A stretch of 64,000 bases of DNA from Perna viridis. Taxonomy: Eukaryota. The position numbers are program-made. The DNA lies in the NCBI GenBank assembly GCA_037379345.1, contig CM074512.1, positions 17,608,001 to 17,672,000 of the forward strand. The letters are read 5' to 3'. Shown here one piece after another: positions 30,001 through 54,000 of this stretch. Numbering within the stretch: position 1 is the stretch's first letter; each line of letters begins with the position of its first letter.

Positions 30001-33000
30001 GCTTTTTGGAATTGTAGCAATTTAAGAAGCAACACTTTGAAAGAAAATCCCTCCTATAGCTGCCTACATGAAGTGACATTGTGTGACATTTATTGAGGAA
30101 AAGTCAAAATTTAAATGTAAAACAGCAACCTAATGAATACACAATATCATTCTTGGCAATATACATTCAGTTTTACTTGTATAACACTATGAAATATATA
30201 AATATTTCTACATTTTTTTTCTTTGGGGGGTTTCACAAAGGTTTAAAATCAGGAGTTTTTATCAGGAGTTTCTCATGAAAATTAAGGAAGAAATCAGGAA
30301 TTGCTTAAAATCATGAAAAATCATGAAAAATCAGGAATAAATATGAAAATCAGGAGTGGCTTGACAGACTGCCATTAAAGAAACTTTAGAATATGGTCAA
30401 AGATATCTTGCCCAAGCCTAAAATCAATTATCACCCTGACTTAAAACTTGGACGAACTTATCATTGCCCAACCATGAAATCAATTATGATAAGGCACACC
30501 TTTGTAAAGTTTGTGTCAAAAAATAAAGTGGCTGTGACAAGTAATTGCCGAGAAAGGTCACAGACAGACAAGGATAAAATATGCTCTGAAGTATAGTGTG
30601 GAAAATATTTCCCATCAAAATGGTAAACAAATTGCATTCTCTTAAAACTAACTCCTTCACCAGAGATAAGTATACTCTCTGTTTTAGAATAGCTTAGTAA
30701 GCAGCTGGAAGTAGAATGTAGCCTTCAGTCATAGAGTATCTACACCAAGAGTAACAAATTTTTATCAGGTGTCAATCACACAAATTATTGTTCAAATCTG
30801 TTATGATTGTAATCTGATGATATGTGGCATTCAATAGATGCTTTTCAAGATAAAATGTCCCCCAGTTAATACAATGTCATCATGTTGAATCTTGGTGGTA
30901 GAATAGTTTAACCAATCATTCCTCAGGATTTTACATTAAATATTCCTTTAACTCATTCAGATAGAAGTGTTGTAGATTAAAAACTTTCATCATAAATTTA
31001 GAAAATGAGTTTTAAATTTGTACAAGTTTTTTTTTTATTTCAATGCAAACTTTTGCAAAAAAAAGGCTTCACTCAAAAGTTAATACAACCAATAAAATGC
31101 ATACAAGGATGACCATTTGTCCAGTTAAGATAAATATATCACTACAACAATAAAGTAATATACTGGTCCAACTACAATGTTGAAGTAATTCCCCTTCAAG
31201 ATCAATACTTAGAAAAATATCTTAAGGTTATTTTGATCAATTATAACTTGATAATTGGGATTGATGGATCACTCCAAATCCACTGCTTTTAACTGAGAGG
31301 CATGCATCAAACAAGATACCTGCCTGTTGAAACAAGATTATTTTATTCAGGTTGAACTAAGTCAATACACAGATCTAATTACAATATTTGCCAATACCTT
31401 TACCTGAACATTAATTACAATTATAGTAAATTTGATATTGACACTGGAGCACCATTGATTTATACTATTATGGAACTAACAAAACTGTCAAGGATGTTGA
31501 TGGATCAAACTGTGATTACAGATTTAATGTAATGTTAGGTGTGAAATTAATTAAATGAACAACTCAACTAATTACACTGAAAAAATAAATAATAGTATCA
31601 CTGAATAGTGGTGCAGAACATGGCTTATAGAAGTTCTACAATTATCAAACATGAAAAGCAGTGAACAAACAAATAACTGTCCACTCATCAGTATACTTCT
31701 TTTTATGATATTCTGATTTCCTTTTTTTTTGTGCCAACAAGTACTGTAGTTCATTTAAAACATCAAAATCTTAACTTTTCTTCAGTTACAACCATAACAG
31801 ATAGAGTATTTACAAAGTTCTCACTAAATTTTACCATATCTTATAATACAAACCTGTTTAAGGTAACTGTTCATCCAGTTTGTGAATGTTTTCTTTTGTA
31901 CTCTTTCTTGTTCATCTAGAAAACAGGAGTACAGTCTTGATTAGTAAATAGTAACTTTTACCTAAGTGTCTACATGAAATCAGGATTTGAGAATGGAAAT
32001 ATTGCTTTTCTTAAGAAGTTTTCAAGTAAAAGTTTATTTTTGTTTATGTGAAATGAATACAACAAATTAATCATGTGGAAGAAAAATGGAAGCAGTTTAT
32101 AAGTTTATTAAAGGGTAGATGTATTGATTTGATTAAAGAAAGGCTGATTTGAGTAAACAGCTGTCTTAAACTGACATACAGATGCTCTTTGTCAGTACTA
32201 TAAATGAAAAAGTTTTGTAAACTATAAATTATCATTAACCACCTGATAACCCCAACTTTCACTTTCCCTGGTGTTAATCTGAATAATACTAGTCAACAAA
32301 TCATCAAAATTCAATAATTTAATAAGCAATATATTACTAGAGAAATTTCTAAACTATCTCCCTTGTTTAGCAACTTCATTGTTATATGTCCTATTGTAGT
32401 GTCCACTACTACAACTATCATAACACTTCTAACTACCTGCCAATCTAATTAACTTCATTACAAGTGATTATATTATTGATTTACTTATAGATCTTCAGTT
32501 AATATATATATAATTTATCATCATGTCAAAGAAACTACAAATAATGACACACAAATATCTCACATCAAATGGACCCTAAAAAAATCCATAATAAAATCTC
32601 AACTTCAATTGTTCCACAAATTTATTGCCTTTTAATCATTCAAGAAACATTAAAATTTCATTTGACTTATTTCCATCATGTCAGCATTTTTCCAATTATT
32701 TCAGTACATTACTATGTTAAATCCCAGTCTGTCACTGTTAAAGTAATCTTGCACAATGTTTTTCTCATGTTTTTTTTATGATTTCTAACTGTAACATGAA
32801 ATTTCGGCTGTGGGAGAATTCAGTTATGCAAAATCTGTCTACAAAGAAAGTTTGGCTGATTTTTTTAACAGATTAAAAGGTCATTTCTTTGATAAAATGG
32901 CAATTTAGCACATCTACATGCTCACACCAATTGAAAATGATCAAAAATTTTTCCTGTACATACAAGAATATAAGAATGAATGTATAAAATCTTAAGTGTG

Positions 33001-51000: not shown

Positions 51001-54000
51001 CCTGTGAGGTAATAAATGTAATATCAATAAGATAATTTACATGAGAAGTAGTTCTTTGCCCCATCTCACATAAAAATCTCAAATTCAATTGTCCTTCTAT
51101 CATTCTTCAATTCTATTTTCAACCAATCAGATTGCTTGAAATTGAGGATTTGAGGAACAAAATCACAACTTGAGAATTTTTAAAGAAACTGGATACAGAT
51201 GTAATTCTTGAATTGTGGTAAAAATCATACAGGGTAAAGACTACTTATAAGAAGCTTGTTGCACCGAAACATTCAATATTGTATTCGAAATATTGGAAAG
51301 TCAGCTTAAATTTTGCAATGACATATTTACAACTGATCATAAACTCAGGTTAATTAGAAAATGTAATAATAGTTTAATTAGTTAAATAATTCCAATAATT
51401 AATTTCTCAATACACACCAGAGTAAAGCTAGACTCAATGAACTGTTGTGACAAACATTATGATATGATTGTATAATGGACTCCTGTGAATGGAGATCTCT
51501 TGCTTAATAAATCAGTTTTACAGATCAATTAAATTATGAAAGGATGAGCAGAGGATTACAACCAATCCATATAGAGTAGAAAATTATGGATCAATGGTTG
51601 GAATTCACGGAAATAAAATTATTTCAGGGTAGGTGAAAATTGGTGTATTACTATCAACAAAGAACCAAATCAGACAGGTCTTTCATCAATACAAATTATA
51701 GGTACCTGGAATTATCCATCCAGTTTGAGAACTTAGACAAATATTCAAACTTTCAATGGTGGAGATGTACAATTTATTCAATGTGTATAGGTATGAATAT
51801 TTTATAAACCTAGGAACCTTGACTAAACTTATTATAAAGCACATTGGCAAAGTTTGACAATTTATAGATTAAGGACAAAAGACTTATTTGACCTTTGATT
51901 GGACTCTTTAACTAAATAAATTTTAGAGCCTTTCTTCTACATGCAGAGCCTTGATTAAATGTTTTCAAACTCAATGTTTTGAATAAAATGTATCTCTATT
52001 TGAAAGATGGCATTTAATTTTCCCTCTGCAGATATGGCTTGGTATTTTAAACAATTTGGATTTAGTCCAAAAGAAAGTTTCCAGACATTCAGGTCTCAGA
52101 TCATTATGTGTTATGCATGTAATAATTTCTTTTTGGAGAATATTACTACACAAATTGTCAACTATATGGTATTCAAGATTTGATGGAAACTCTATGGCTG
52201 GTCAGTTTATTATAAGAAACCTAAAAGAACATTTGCTGTCATGTGAAAACAGCAAACGTGGAACCAAAAAGTTGTATTTTTCAGGGTCACTCAGGCCAAC
52301 AAAAAAAATACCTGTGTTTCTACTAACATTCTTTAAAAAACTAGGGCTGGTAGGTAAGCAAAACTTTTTGACTGATTTGTTTTGTAGACACATTCAGACT
52401 TTAATTGCGTGTGTCAAAAAATGGCAAAAAAACTTTAGGGTAAGCACAAAAAGTTAGGGTTGGAAGGGTTAGCAGACACACAGGCATTCTTTTAAGCCTT
52501 ATAACACAGCATATCACAATAAATGGTTTACTCTACATTATTCCTTTCTTCTTGGCCAAAACAACTTACTTGCTAACTGCTGGATTTGCATCTGAATGCC
52601 AGCTCCCTTCTTGCTCCCATCTGTAGAGGACCTGGGGGTGCTAGGTGGAGTAGCCCCAGACAGGGAGGACAGTGAACCTGAATGCCTTCGTTCCATCCTA
52701 TGTTGTCTTGTTGTCAATCTAACATGTTTCTAACTCCTGTTCAATGATAAAACAATAGCTGCCTTAAACACAATTACACAAGTAGTGCATAAAGATTTAA
52801 ATAGTAAACTAGCAACCATGAAGCCTATCACATACCAAAGAATAATTCCATACAAAATGGGGACTGGTAGTTTTGCTAATAATGACTTTAATCAGCTTAA
52901 AATTAAATACAATAATAGAAGTTAAAAGAACTGTAACATATTAGAATTATTCAATATCCAACACAGAGAGTCTGAGTATTTGTTTATGTATTTTTAATAA
53001 CAAATACATACCATTTAAATGAAGCTAGTGCTAATGAGATGTGTAATGTACATTAATAATTCACCTGGATTTTTAAAACAAGTGCAAATTACTGGTACAA
53101 AATCGAAACTAACGCACAGCAAGTTGTATTATGTACCTACATAAAACTGTCAATGAACAGATAAAAAAACATGGTCAACTTGACAATATAATACCATTGG
53201 TTACCTAAACATGAAATAGTTTACACCTACCCAAAGGTACATCAATACTTTCTAACAAACTTACCTATTACTGCTATAATGTCCAGAAGTTGGAATATTC
53301 ACTTTAAAATCATTCAATACAAGTCATTGACTAGGTGTTGTGAACATACAAATACCATATACCTATAAATGAACATAATTTCTATACAGATTCATGTTGA
53401 GACACGAAATGTTATATCACCAATAAAATACCTGTGAGGAAAATCAAACAGGATTAATCAAAATGCAAGTTAAAAAAGATAAAGAAACATTTAAATCTCG
53501 GGTAATCAAATACAAAGTTGGTGCCATTTAAATTAGAGAAAGGTTTCAATCAACATTTTCAGTTCATAGATTCCAAGGAATATCAAACATTGTTCTAAAA
53601 GGAACGATCATATGAACTTGTAAACAGAAATACAAATGCAAACCTTCCTAATAGCAGTAACTATTTTGGCATGGTTCCAGTCACACCTATTTTTCTTACC
53701 ACATCATTAGAAAAATTTTCACCTTGTTAGTCCTGAATTATAATATTTTTCATTCAATACACACAATATTTAACACATAAGGTCTAAGTATGAATATCCT
53801 GCACAAATACAATAACATCTTTATAGTGATCGGGTGCAGGTTGTCACATGACAAAACTTAATATCGGTACAATGTCCATGGAATAAATATATGTTACCCC
53901 AGAAACAATTAACAATAATAAGAAAGTAGTTTTCTCATCTGGCAGGTCCTCTGGGAAATTTTGGCACCTACTGACAAGCCTGTCATCAACCACAGAAGCT

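What the first reader, a model, noticed from the sequence alone, without database searches (positions are those of the whole stretch)
31854..52736. Set of alternative ATG-bearing first exons giving the nesprin actin-binding domain swappable N-termini
Seen: three short ORFs (52570-52696, 42005-42077, 34557-34626) each start at an ATG with an in-frame stop upstream, end in a strong donor, and are exactly 3n+1 long. Each therefore splices in frame to the same CH1 exon (31854-31915), giving ...QQLA-N-EQERVQ, ...QNYE-D-EQERVQ or ...VLSLK-D-EQERVQ. None is in the ORF track. Known: variable first exons spliced onto a common actin-binding domain are a hallmark of plectin, dystonin/MACF1 and dystrophin. 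Inference: this mollusc-type nesprin uses multi-promoter N-terminal switching, which would explain the 20-kb intron. Exon 1c is the weakest of the three.
Basis: partly seen in the sequence, partly recalled or inferred. Interest (0 to 1): 0.68.

Follow-up and report, generated by a model that had tools for sequence, protein, structure and literature searches.

The report
Three alternative nesprin first exons, conserved
A mussel-type nesprin gene has three interchangeable start exons that put different short peptides in front of its actin-binding domain, and a scallop gene has matching isoforms, so the feature is real but of a known kind.

Summary
On the minus strand, three ATG-bearing stretches lie exactly as described: 1a 52696-52570, 1b 42077-42005 and 1c 34626-34557. 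Each has an in-frame stop upstream, an 8/9 donor and a length of 3n+1. All three fit the acceptor of the first CH1 exon (31915-31854).

Counting alone did not prove 1b and 1c. Shuffles give about 0.5 such sites per phase, with P(>=2) = 0.10.

Homology settles it. Pecten maximus has three RefSeq isoforms, X1, X2 and X3. They are identical over 376 residues and differ only before the CH1 start. Their N-termini match 1a, 1b and 1c respectively, as unique best hits in the window: E 7.5e-10, 3.5e-6 (13/24) and 2.1e-8 (18/23). A Mytilus edulis SYNE1 model carries 1a with the predicted junction.

It also resembles the actin-contacting N-terminal helix of beta-III-spectrin.

Separate promoters and functional differences remain inferred. 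No transcript data could be consulted. This is a new member of a known kind (plectin, dystonin, dystrophin style).

The parts
52570..52696 (-). Coding part of alternative 5' exon 1a (42 codons + 1 base). It encodes a Ser/Thr/Pro/Gly-rich peptide ending in a conserved short helix-like stretch.
   Evidence: Sequence read; enumeration. The peptide is 90% identical over 42 aa to the N-terminus of SYNE1 [Mytilus edulis] P0001, which continues into CH1. It also matches Pecten X1 (E 7.5e-10), and aligns with Dreissena and Candidula N-termini.
42005..42077 (-). Coding part of alternative 5' exon 1b (24 codons + 1 base).
   Evidence: Sequence read; enumeration. The 24-aa N-terminus of Pecten maximus isoform X2 (P0155, XP_033734091.1) aligns to 42077-42006 ungapped with 13/24 identical and E 3.5e-6; the next best hit has E 7.3.
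34557..34626 (-). Coding part of alternative 5' exon 1c (23 codons + 1 base).
   Evidence: Sequence read; enumeration. Pecten isoform X3 (P0257, XP_033734092.1) aligns to 34626-34558 ungapped, 18/23, E 2.1e-8. The unnamed ORF P0152 is 19/23 identical, and its likeness stops just past the donor. The pre-junction 8-mer ranks 1 of 679 phase-1 GT sites.
31854..31915 (-). Common acceptor exon encoding the start of CH1 (helix A).
   Evidence: Sequence read. tblastn of P0001 residues 43-63 gives 95% identity.
31916..52569 (-). Intron between the 1a donor and the common acceptor (20,654 nt). It holds 1b and 1c.
   Evidence: No Pfam hit among the 4 longest ORFs inside it that were tested. No Rfam family and no tRNA in the window.
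34627..34926 (-). 300 nt upstream of the 1c ATG: a local G+C peak, candidate 5'UTR or promoter.
   Evidence: GC is 0.390, in the top 1% of 815 intron windows; CpG o/e is 0. The 400-nt profile peaks at 34600-34999 with 0.378.
42078..42377 (-). 300 nt upstream of the 1b ATG: a local G+C peak, candidate 5'UTR or promoter.
   Evidence: GC is 0.357, in the top 3.3% of 815 intron windows; CpG o/e is 0.11. The profile peaks at 42000-42399 with 0.372.
21896..29227 (-). Remaining exons of the CH1-CH2 actin-binding domain and the first rod segment. Exons by tblastn bounds: 29227-29138, 25791-25708, 25271-25173, 24756-24625, 23477-23268, 22686-22459, 22207-21896.
   Evidence: tblastn of P0001 and P0155. 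Pfam CH hits on 3 of these exons.
2585..21540 (-). Further spectrin-repeat exons of the same gene. The gene runs off the low end of the window.
   Evidence: Minus-strand ORFs. Spectrin_SYNE1 at 20007-20450 and sub-threshold Spectrin hits at 7626-8273 and 18203-18544.

Best explanation
The window holds the 5' part of a bivalve nesprin (SYNE1/Msp300-type) gene on the minus strand.

Shown: three mutually exclusive, ATG-bearing 5' coding exons (1a, 1b, 1c, in that order along the gene) can each be joined in phase 1 to the same exon, one codon before helix A of CH1. All three peptides, with that junction, are conserved in a scallop.

Inferred: each exon is the first coding exon of its own transcript class, most simply from its own promoter. 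1b and 1c lie inside the intron that 1a-transcripts remove, and stops precede their ATGs.

Inferred mechanism: the swap replaces the 'N-terminal flanking region' (ABS-N) of a tandem-CH actin-binding domain. In beta-III-spectrin, utrophin and filamin A this segment contacts actin directly, sets the affinity and biases which actin structures are bound. The three isoforms would therefore carry the same CH1-CH2 with three different ABS-N segments:
- 1c gives a beta-spectrin-like helix.
- 1a gives a 42-aa Ser/Pro-rich, probably disordered tail, with a conserved basic-Ser motif that could be phosphorylated.
- 1b gives an aromatic, Cys-bearing 24-mer of unknown role.

As in plectin and dystonin, the N-termini would set tissue or subcellular use.
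For: - Anatomy.
- 1a: P0001, SYNE1 [Mytilus edulis], is 90% identical over 42 of 42 aa and continues straight into CH1. 1a-type N-termini also occur in Pecten X1, Dreissena and Candidula (27/38, 23/42 and 14/42 identical).
- Pecten maximus isoforms X1, X2 and X3 sit in one 90% cluster. They are identical over the last 376 aa and differ only in the N-terminal peptide. Their three peptides hit 1a, 1b and 1c respectively and nothing else in 64 kb (E 7.5e-10, 3.5e-6, 2.1e-8; next best E 1.0, 7.3, 1.5).
- 1c: P0152 is 19/23 identical with one in-frame extra codon. Its likeness includes the first donor bases and is then lost in all frames. The codon log-odds score is 6.2 bits, reached by 1.7% of 179 null frames. 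The pre-junction 8-mer ranks 1 of 679.
- G+C peaks lie upstream of 1b and 1c.
- No strong acceptor was found within 200 nt upstream of the 1a and 1b ATGs.
- Mechanism: phmmer aligns residues 10-23 of the 1c-type peptide to residues 38-52 of beta-III-spectrin chain 6anu_f. A paper describes those residues as an actin-binding helix continuous with helix A (PMC8810934, passages). ABS-N and localisation are covered in PMC7688639 (passages).
- Precedents: plectin (PMC8468861, passages) and dystonin (PMC3279385, one passage).
Against: - No transcript, junction-read or start-site evidence was available for the window's species. The Pecten isoforms are computed RefSeq models, and I could not see their read support.
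- 1b rests on one species (13/24 identical). It failed my own statistics: codon score -1.5 bits (25% of null frames at or above), and pre-junction 8-mer rank 284 of 679.
- Counting alone gives P about 0.1.
- In one search, 0 of 123 N-terminal peptides of the 50%-identity representatives hit 1b or 1c. The Pecten isoforms were not among them.
- A profile of each type found no further 1b or 1c member among 247 stored proteins.
- No CpG island lies upstream of any of the three, and the 300 nt upstream of 1a are ordinary in G+C (0.290). 1a may therefore follow an unseen non-coding leader exon.
- An acceptor-like site lies 124 nt upstream of the 1c ATG.
- The functional roles of the peptides are inference only. 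No structure model could be made.
Confidence: 0.8

Rival explanations
1. 1a, 1b and 1c are real and mutually exclusive, but they are not transcription-start exons. One promoter and one or more shared non-coding leader exons further upstream feed alternative splicing into 1a, 1b or 1c.
For: The 300 nt upstream of the 1a ATG are ordinary in G+C (0.290), and no CpG island precedes any of the three. A pyrimidine-rich stretch ending in AG lies about 40 nt upstream of the 1a ATG (read; it falls below my threshold). An acceptor-like site lies 124 nt upstream of the 1c ATG, at 34750.
Against: No strong acceptor was found within 200 nt upstream of the 1b ATG. G+C peaks sit just upstream of 1b and 1c. 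In the known cases (plectin, dystonin, dystrophin) the variable first exons have their own promoters (PMC8468861 and PMC5664101, passages).
Confidence: 0.15
2. Only 1a is a real exon. 1b and 1c are chance open frames in a long A+T-rich intron.
For: Shuffles give about 0.5 such sites per phase, with P(>=2) = 0.10. The opposite strand has one phase-1 site, and phase 0 on the gene strand has one. 1b looks like the null in both the codon score and the pre-junction score.
Against: Both peptides recur at full length and ungapped, from Met to the junction, at the N-terminus of scallop isoforms that continue into the same CH1. An unnamed third sequence, P0152, also keeps 1c. Intron sequence would not be expected to stay alignable between bivalve orders (my own knowledge, not a call).
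Confidence: 0.03
3. The conserved 1b and 1c stretches are conserved for another reason, such as regulatory elements or exons of another unannotated transcript. The scallop models join them to CH1 wrongly.
For: The Pecten records are automatic models under an imprecise name ('spectrin beta chain, erythrocytic-like') and stop after about 400 aa.
Against: The following are all kept in both species: the start codon, the open frame, the exact length (24 and 23 aa), phase 1 and a strong donor. 1c encodes a peptide that aligns with the pre-CH1 helix of beta-spectrin. That makes sense only if it is translated in front of CH1.
Confidence: 0.02

Closest known systems
Pecten maximus gene with RefSeq isoforms X1/X2/X3 (XP_033734089.1, XP_033734091.1, XP_033734092.1; named 'spectrin beta chain, erythrocytic-like')
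   Same: It has three N-terminal peptides of the 1a, 1b and 1c types, joined at the same position to an identical CH1-CH2. The CH exons are 74-94% identical to the window.
   Different: It comes from a different order of bivalves. The models end after 376 common residues with a tail unlike the window's next exon, so they are either truncated models or a short CH-only isoform. The name given by the source does not say nesprin.
Plectin alternative first exons (1, 1a, 1b, 1c, and so on)
   Same: Short isoform-specific N-terminal peptides are encoded by alternative first exons directly in front of a tandem-CH actin-binding domain. In plectin these dictate targeting (PMC8468861, passages). Plectin and MACF1 ABDs are the closest solved structures to the scallop protein.
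   Different: Plectin has about a dozen first exons and is a plakin, with a plakin domain and an intermediate-filament-binding C-terminus. Here there are three exons, and the gene is nesprin-type (Spectrin_SYNE1). The peptides are not similar in sequence. Targeting is not shown here.
Dystonin-a1/a2/a3 and the full-length dystrophins Dp427c/m/p
   Same: Unique N-terminal regions on a shared ABD differentiate the isoforms and, for dystonin, their localisation (PMC3279385, one passage). The DMD gene has three full-length isoforms from separate promoters (PMC5664101, abstract and passages).
   Different: These are different gene families. The dystonin N-termini include a transmembrane segment or a myristoylation motif, and neither is evident here.
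Vertebrate nesprin-1/-2 and Drosophila Msp300 isoform diversity
   Same: It is the same gene family. Many isoforms arise from alternative promoters and terminators (PMC3388047, section 5 and passages; PMC11230431, passages).
   Different: The 5'UTRs listed in Rajgor et al. 2012, Table 1, lie at intron 14/15 or further downstream. They give isoforms that lack the CH domains, not alternative peptides in front of CH1. I could not see that paper's supplementary tables.
N-terminal flanking region (ABS-N) of beta-III-spectrin, utrophin and filamin A
   Same: It is the segment immediately before CH1. The 1c-type peptide aligns with the beta-III-spectrin helix that contacts actin (PMC8810934).
   Different: In those proteins the segment is fixed. 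Here it is exchanged by choice of exon. The 1a- and 1b-type peptides align only over their last 5-6 residues.

Membership tests
Nesprin-1/-2 / Msp300 / ANC-1 (giant spectrin-repeat KASH proteins) | N-terminal tandem calponin-homology (CH1-CH2) actin-binding domain | tested here: met
   Pfam CH hits on exons 23268-23477 (57 bits), 29138-29227 and 25173-25271 (the last two below the cut-off, being short exons). The exon chain maps to P0001 and P0155, which score 161 and 163 bits for CH.
Nesprin-1/-2 / Msp300 / ANC-1 (giant spectrin-repeat KASH proteins) | Nesprin-type spectrin repeats after the ABD | tested here: met
   Exon 20007-20450 matches PF25034 Spectrin_SYNE1 at 111.4 bits against a cut-off of 35. 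The generic Spectrin model stays below its cut-off on three exons (17-24 bits against 29.9).
Nesprin-1/-2 / Msp300 / ANC-1 (giant spectrin-repeat KASH proteins) | C-terminal KASH domain | not testable with these tools
   The gene runs off the low end of the window. Its 3' end is not in the 64 kb.
Nesprin-1/-2 / Msp300 / ANC-1 (giant spectrin-repeat KASH proteins) | Closest named relatives are nesprins | tested here: met
   SYNE1 [Mytilus edulis] and [M. coruscus], Msp300-like [Dreissena polymorpha], and nesprin-1-like [Saccoglossus, Anneissia, Pollicipes]. These names are annotators' labels, not tests.
Variable first coding exons on a common ABD (plectin / dystonin / dystrophin style) | Two or more ATG-bearing 5' exons, each joining in frame to the same exon at the start of CH1 | tested here: met
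   Three exons, all phase 1, with 8/9 donors and one acceptor. The same three junction products exist as scallop isoforms.
Variable first coding exons on a common ABD (plectin / dystonin / dystrophin style) | The alternative transcripts are actually made | not testable with these tools
   No read or cDNA collection of bivalves was available. The indirect evidence is three RefSeq isoform models in Pecten and one Mytilus edulis model with 1a.
Variable first coding exons on a common ABD (plectin / dystonin / dystrophin style) | A separate promoter for each first exon | tested here: inconclusive
   G+C peaks lie upstream of 1b (top 3.3%) and 1c (top 1%) but not 1a. There are no CpG islands. Acceptor-like sites are absent upstream of 1a and 1b, and one is present 124 nt upstream of 1c.
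Variable first coding exons on a common ABD (plectin / dystonin / dystrophin style) | N-termini confer different localisation or actin affinity | not testable with these tools
   This is inference from other proteins only.
ABS-N (actin-contacting N-terminal flanking region of tandem-CH domains) | Peptide lies immediately N-terminal to helix A of CH1 | tested here: met
   The junction is one codon before the conserved start of CH1. Alignments to solved ABDs start at or before the junction.
ABS-N (actin-contacting N-terminal flanking region of tandem-CH domains) | Sequence likeness to a solved actin-bound N-terminal helix | tested here: inconclusive
   The 1c type meets this: residues 10-23 align with 6anu_f residues 38-52. 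The 1b type aligns only from residue 20 of 24, and the 1a type only from residue 39 of 44.

The most novel reading that the evidence does not exclude
The nesprin actin-binding domain of bivalves carries an ancient three-way switch of its actin-contacting N-terminal flank, kept at least since the common ancestor of mussels and scallops. 1c would give a beta-spectrin-like actin-binding helix. 1a would give a phospho-regulated disordered tail; it is also present in a heterodont bivalve and probably in a land snail. 1b would give an aromatic, Cys-bearing head with a distinct target. Promoter choice would then tune which actin structures the nucleus-cytoskeleton linker engages. Named teleost nesprin-1-like models also show at least two kinds of N-terminus at the same junction, so the principle may hold for nesprins generally, although the nesprin literature I searched does not describe it.
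Probability: 0.35. Interest if true: 0.6.

Novelty: new member of a known kind. Interest (0 to 1): 0.45.

Why it matters
The nesprin isoform literature that I could search deals with internal promoters and terminators that remove the CH or KASH domains. It does not describe exchangeable peptides in front of the actin-binding domain.

Recent structural work shows that exactly this flank contacts actin and biases which filaments are bound. A naturally occurring, conserved three-way swap of that flank in one gene would be a ready-made comparative system for asking how the flank tunes a tandem-CH domain.

For annotation, the finding shows that the 20-kb first intron of this gene holds two real coding exons that ORF tracks miss. 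It also shows that the scallop gene labelled 'spectrin beta chain, erythrocytic-like' is the 5' end of a nesprin-type gene.

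Tried and rejected
- Chance ORFs: enumeration and shuffles left 1b and 1c only marginally above chance. The hypothesis was rejected later by conservation.
- Codon log-odds against the gene's own exons: this supported 1c (1.7% of the null) but not 1b. It did not support the first 23 codons of the certainly real 1a either. 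It is therefore a poor test for these short N-terminal peptides.
- Pre-junction 8-mer profile from 118 CH proteins: 1c ranked 1 of 679 and 1b ranked 284 of 679. The profile missed 1b.
- tblastn of 123 N-terminal peptides of the 50%-identity representatives: only 2 of 123 (P0001, P0002) hit, and both hit 1a. None hit 1b or 1c.
- P0005 (unnamed ENA contig) has another N-terminus, but that N-terminus has no match in the window. The protein is only 72% identical to the window's exons, with changes at conserved positions. I set it aside as a paralogue or retrocopy of some other genome.
- Likeness of 1c to the Saccoglossus nesprin-1-like N-terminus: not significant in a profile search.
- Transposon or other-gene origin of 1b and 1c: no repeat in the window overlaps them, and there are no Pfam hits on neighbouring ORFs.
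- Rfam and tRNA scans found nothing.
- Direct database search of the 1b peptide was not possible. The tool needs 40 aa without stops, and the open frame is 32 aa.
- Structure prediction of the scallop isoforms was not accepted by the tool.
- The joined (spliced) protein of the window's exons was deliberately not built or searched.

Full report
**What is in the sequence**

The window has no N and is 31% G+C. All features below are on the minus strand.
- 1a: the ATG at 52696 opens a 127-nt stretch ending at 52570, before GTAAGT.
- 1b: the ATG at 42077 opens 73 nt ending at 42005, before GTTAGT.
- 1c: the ATG at 34626 opens 70 nt ending at 34557, before GTAAGC.
- The acceptor tttctag|A starts the next exon at 31915, which runs to 31854.
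- Each stretch is 3n+1 long and has an in-frame stop 11, 7 and 16 codons upstream of its ATG. Each has a purine at -3 and G at +4.
- None appears among the 83 ORFs of 60 aa or more.

**Is it more than chance?**

I enumerated every ATG-open-frame-donor stretch (donor at least 8 of 9 consensus positions, at least 40 nt) in the 20,654-nt intron.
- Phase 1 gave two donors, which are 1b and 1c themselves. Phase 0 gave one and phase 2 gave none.
- The opposite strand gave 0, 1 and 0.
- Dinucleotide shuffles (300) gave about 0.5 per phase, with P(at least 2) = 0.10. With a 60-nt minimum (200 shuffles) this was 0.035.

Counting alone would therefore not have established 1b and 1c.

Two further statistics of my own were mixed.
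- A codon log-odds score trained on 1,876 codons of the gene's other exons put 1c in the top 1.7% of 179 null frames. It put 1b at 25%, and also put the first 23 codons of 1a at 24%.
- A profile of the eight residues before the CH1 junction, built from 118 CH-domain proteins, ranked 1c first of 679 stop-free phase-1 GT sites. It ranked 1b only 284th.

**What gene it is**

The 1a peptide found one protein among those of 75-2,000 aa: P0001, 'SYNE1 [Mytilus edulis]'. It is 90% identical over all 42 residues. P0001 continues from that peptide, through an Asn, straight into CH1.

tblastn of P0001 lays out the exon chain:
- 52696-52570 (HSP 52696-52565)
- 31915-31854 (HSP 31916-31854)
- 29227-29138
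- 25791-25708
- 25271-25173
- 24756-24625
- 23477-23268
- 22686-22459
- 22207-21896
- 20796-20731
- 20480-20007

Most CH-domain exons are 82-97% identical to P0001; the two rod exons at 20796-20007 are 56-64% identical.

Pfam finds CH on three exons. It finds the nesprin-specific family Spectrin_SYNE1 (111 bits, cut-off 35) on 20007-20450. Named relatives are SYNE1, Msp300-like and nesprin-1-like proteins. The KASH end is outside the window.

The source looks like a mytilid-type bivalve but is not Mytilus edulis itself.

**The decisive evidence**

A search with the CH1 part of P0001 (residues 43-200, proteins of 346-1,103 aa) returned 110 proteins at E <= 1e-20, from 501 candidates. The second best was P0155, isoform X2 of a Pecten maximus RefSeq gene.

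Its 90% cluster has three members: X1 (P0256, 421 aa), X2 (P0155, 401 aa) and X3 (P0257, 400 aa). The three are identical over their last 376 residues and differ only in the peptide before the CH1 start.

Compared with the whole window by tblastn, each peptide has a single significant hit:

| Pecten isoform | Window hit | Exon | Identity | E-value | Next best E |
|---|---|---|---|---|---|
| X1 | 52693-52571 | 1a | 26 of 46 aligned columns (with gaps) | 7.5e-10 | 1.0 |
| X2 | 42077-42006 | 1b | 13/24, ungapped, Met to last codon | 3.5e-6 | 7.3 |
| X3 | 34626-34558 | 1c | 18/23, ungapped, Met to last codon | 2.1e-8 | 1.5 |

Lengths match for 1b and 1c, and the junction residue matches in all three (Asn for 1a, Asp for 1b and 1c).

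**Independent support for 1c**

The 43-aa open frame around 1c found P0152, an 85-aa ORF from an unnamed JGI contig.
- P0152 starts with a 1c-like peptide: 19 of 23 identical, with one extra codon in frame.
- It keeps the two codons that span the donor.
- After that it has no likeness to the window in any frame.

This is the pattern of a conserved exon next to a diverged intron.

**Further relatives of 1a**

1a-type N-termini also occur in Dreissena polymorpha and, more loosely, in the snail Candidula.

**Joined model left out**

Each exon was searched or compared on its own. The splice model was tested against database proteins that already carry the junction.

**Results that went against the reading, or are missing**

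- Before the Pecten isoforms turned up, 0 of 123 N-terminal peptides of the 50%-identity representatives matched 1b or 1c.
- Profiles of the 1b and 1c types found no further member among 247 stored proteins.
- The 1b peptide could not be searched directly. The tool requires 40 aa without stops, and the open frame is 32 aa.
- Proteins longer than 2,000 aa were never searched with the peptides.
- No bivalve genome or transcriptome DNA was available.
- There is therefore no nucleotide-level conservation, no synteny and no read evidence.
- The Pecten isoforms are computed models.

**Promoters**

In the 400-nt profile, the three highest G+C peaks between 32 and 53 kb are:
- 52400-52799 (0.405), which contains 1a itself
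- 34600-34999 (0.378)
- 42000-42399 (0.372)

The 300 nt upstream of each ATG, ranked among 815 intron windows, are as follows:
- 1c: G+C 0.390, top 1%
- 1b: G+C 0.357, top 3.3%
- 1a: G+C 0.290, ordinary

CpG is depleted everywhere: observed/expected is 0.2 in the intron and 0-0.11 upstream of the ATGs. No CpG island marks a promoter.

No strong acceptor lies within 200 nt upstream of the 1a and 1b ATGs. One acceptor-like site lies 124 nt upstream of the 1c ATG.

Separate promoters are therefore the simplest reading, but they are inferred. A shared leader exon remains possible.

**How it most likely works**

The exon junction lies one codon before helix A of CH1, so the swapped peptide is the 'N-terminal flanking region' (ABS-N) of the tandem-CH domain.

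Passages I read state the following for this segment.
- It contacts actin directly.
- It forms a helix continuous with helix A in beta-III-spectrin (residues S37-A52, PDB 6ANU) and in utrophin.
- Its truncation lowers or abolishes actin binding (PMC8810934).
- It influences which actin structures the utrophin domain decorates (PMC7688639).

phmmer aligns residues 10-23 of the scallop 1c-type peptide with residues 38-52 of chain 6anu_f. The 1b- and 1a-type peptides align with solved domains only over their last 5-6 residues.

The three window peptides differ in character (conservation):
- 1a is 42 aa, 48% Ser/Thr/Pro/Gly, net charge +3, with a basic-Ser motif kept in 3 of 4 bivalve sequences.
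- 1b is 24 aa with four aromatic residues and a Cys that is kept in the scallop.
- 1c is 23 aa.

My best explanation is that one ABD receives three alternative actin-facing flanks, chosen by transcript start. The consequences would be different affinity, regulation or localisation, as shown for plectin (PMC8468861, passages) and dystonin (PMC3279385, one passage). The anatomy and the conservation are shown. The promoters and the functional differences are inferred.

**Comparison with what is known, and novelty**

Variable first exons on a common ABD are established for plectin, dystonin and dystrophin.

For nesprins, the papers I could search describe internal promoters and terminators. In Rajgor et al. 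2012, every 5'UTR in Table 1 lies at intron 14/15 or further 3' (section 5 read; supplementary tables not seen).

Full-text searches returned no paper on N-terminal exon switching in front of the nesprin ABD or on nesprin isoforms in bivalves. I judged this from listings only. The searches were:
- nesprin + 'alternative first exon': 3 papers, all on plectin
- nesprin + bivalve: 6 papers, 4 listed
- nesprin-1/-2 variants
- SYNE1 + promoter, first exon, CH

The three scallop isoforms are, however, already in RefSeq, under a name that hides what they are. Named teleost nesprin-1-like models also show at least two kinds of N-terminus at the same junction. I did not test whether those come from one gene.

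I therefore rate the finding as a real, well-observed feature and a new member of a known kind. It is of moderate interest.

Noticed in passing
window 18819-19227 and 61599-62005: Two copies of a ~410-nt interspersed element lie in opposite orientation and are 93% identical. Each has terminal inverted repeats of a few tens of bases and TTAA at both ends, so it looks like a MITE. One copy lies in a nesprin intron, and the other about 9 kb upstream of exon 1a.
   Followed up: partly
window 54439-55850: Four to five diverged tandem copies (62-94% identity) of a ~320-nt unit lie about 2 kb upstream of exon 1a. Tandem Repeats Finder did not report them.
   Followed up: no
protein P0005 (unnamed ENA contig of 2,437 nt): This is a spliced-looking CH1-CH2 protein of 293 aa, 72% identical to the window's exons. 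It has another N-terminus, changes at conserved positions and a divergent tail. It may be a paralogue or a retrocopy in a related genome. Its N-terminus has no match in the window.
   Followed up: partly
proteins P0155, P0256, P0257 against window 21896-22207: The three Pecten models end about 20 residues after the point where they stop matching the window's exon 22207-21896. They may be truncated gene models or a short CH-only isoform of the kind described for vertebrate nesprin-1.
   Followed up: no
window 31916-52569 and flanks: CpG is strongly depleted (observed/expected 0.20 in the intron, 0-0.11 upstream of the three ATGs). This is as expected for a heavily methylated gene body.
   Followed up: no
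window 56998-57249 (minus strand): An 84-aa ORF has a sub-threshold Pfam hit to the actin-fragmin kinase catalytic domain (21.5 bits, cut-off 24). It is probably chance.
   Followed up: no
named teleost proteins (e.g. P0168, P0164, P0173): Nesprin-1-like models of fishes show at least two kinds of N-terminal peptide joined at the same position before CH1. One is a 26-aa type and the other a 5-aa type. This suggests that first-exon choice in front of the nesprin ABD may not be limited to bivalves.
   Followed up: partly
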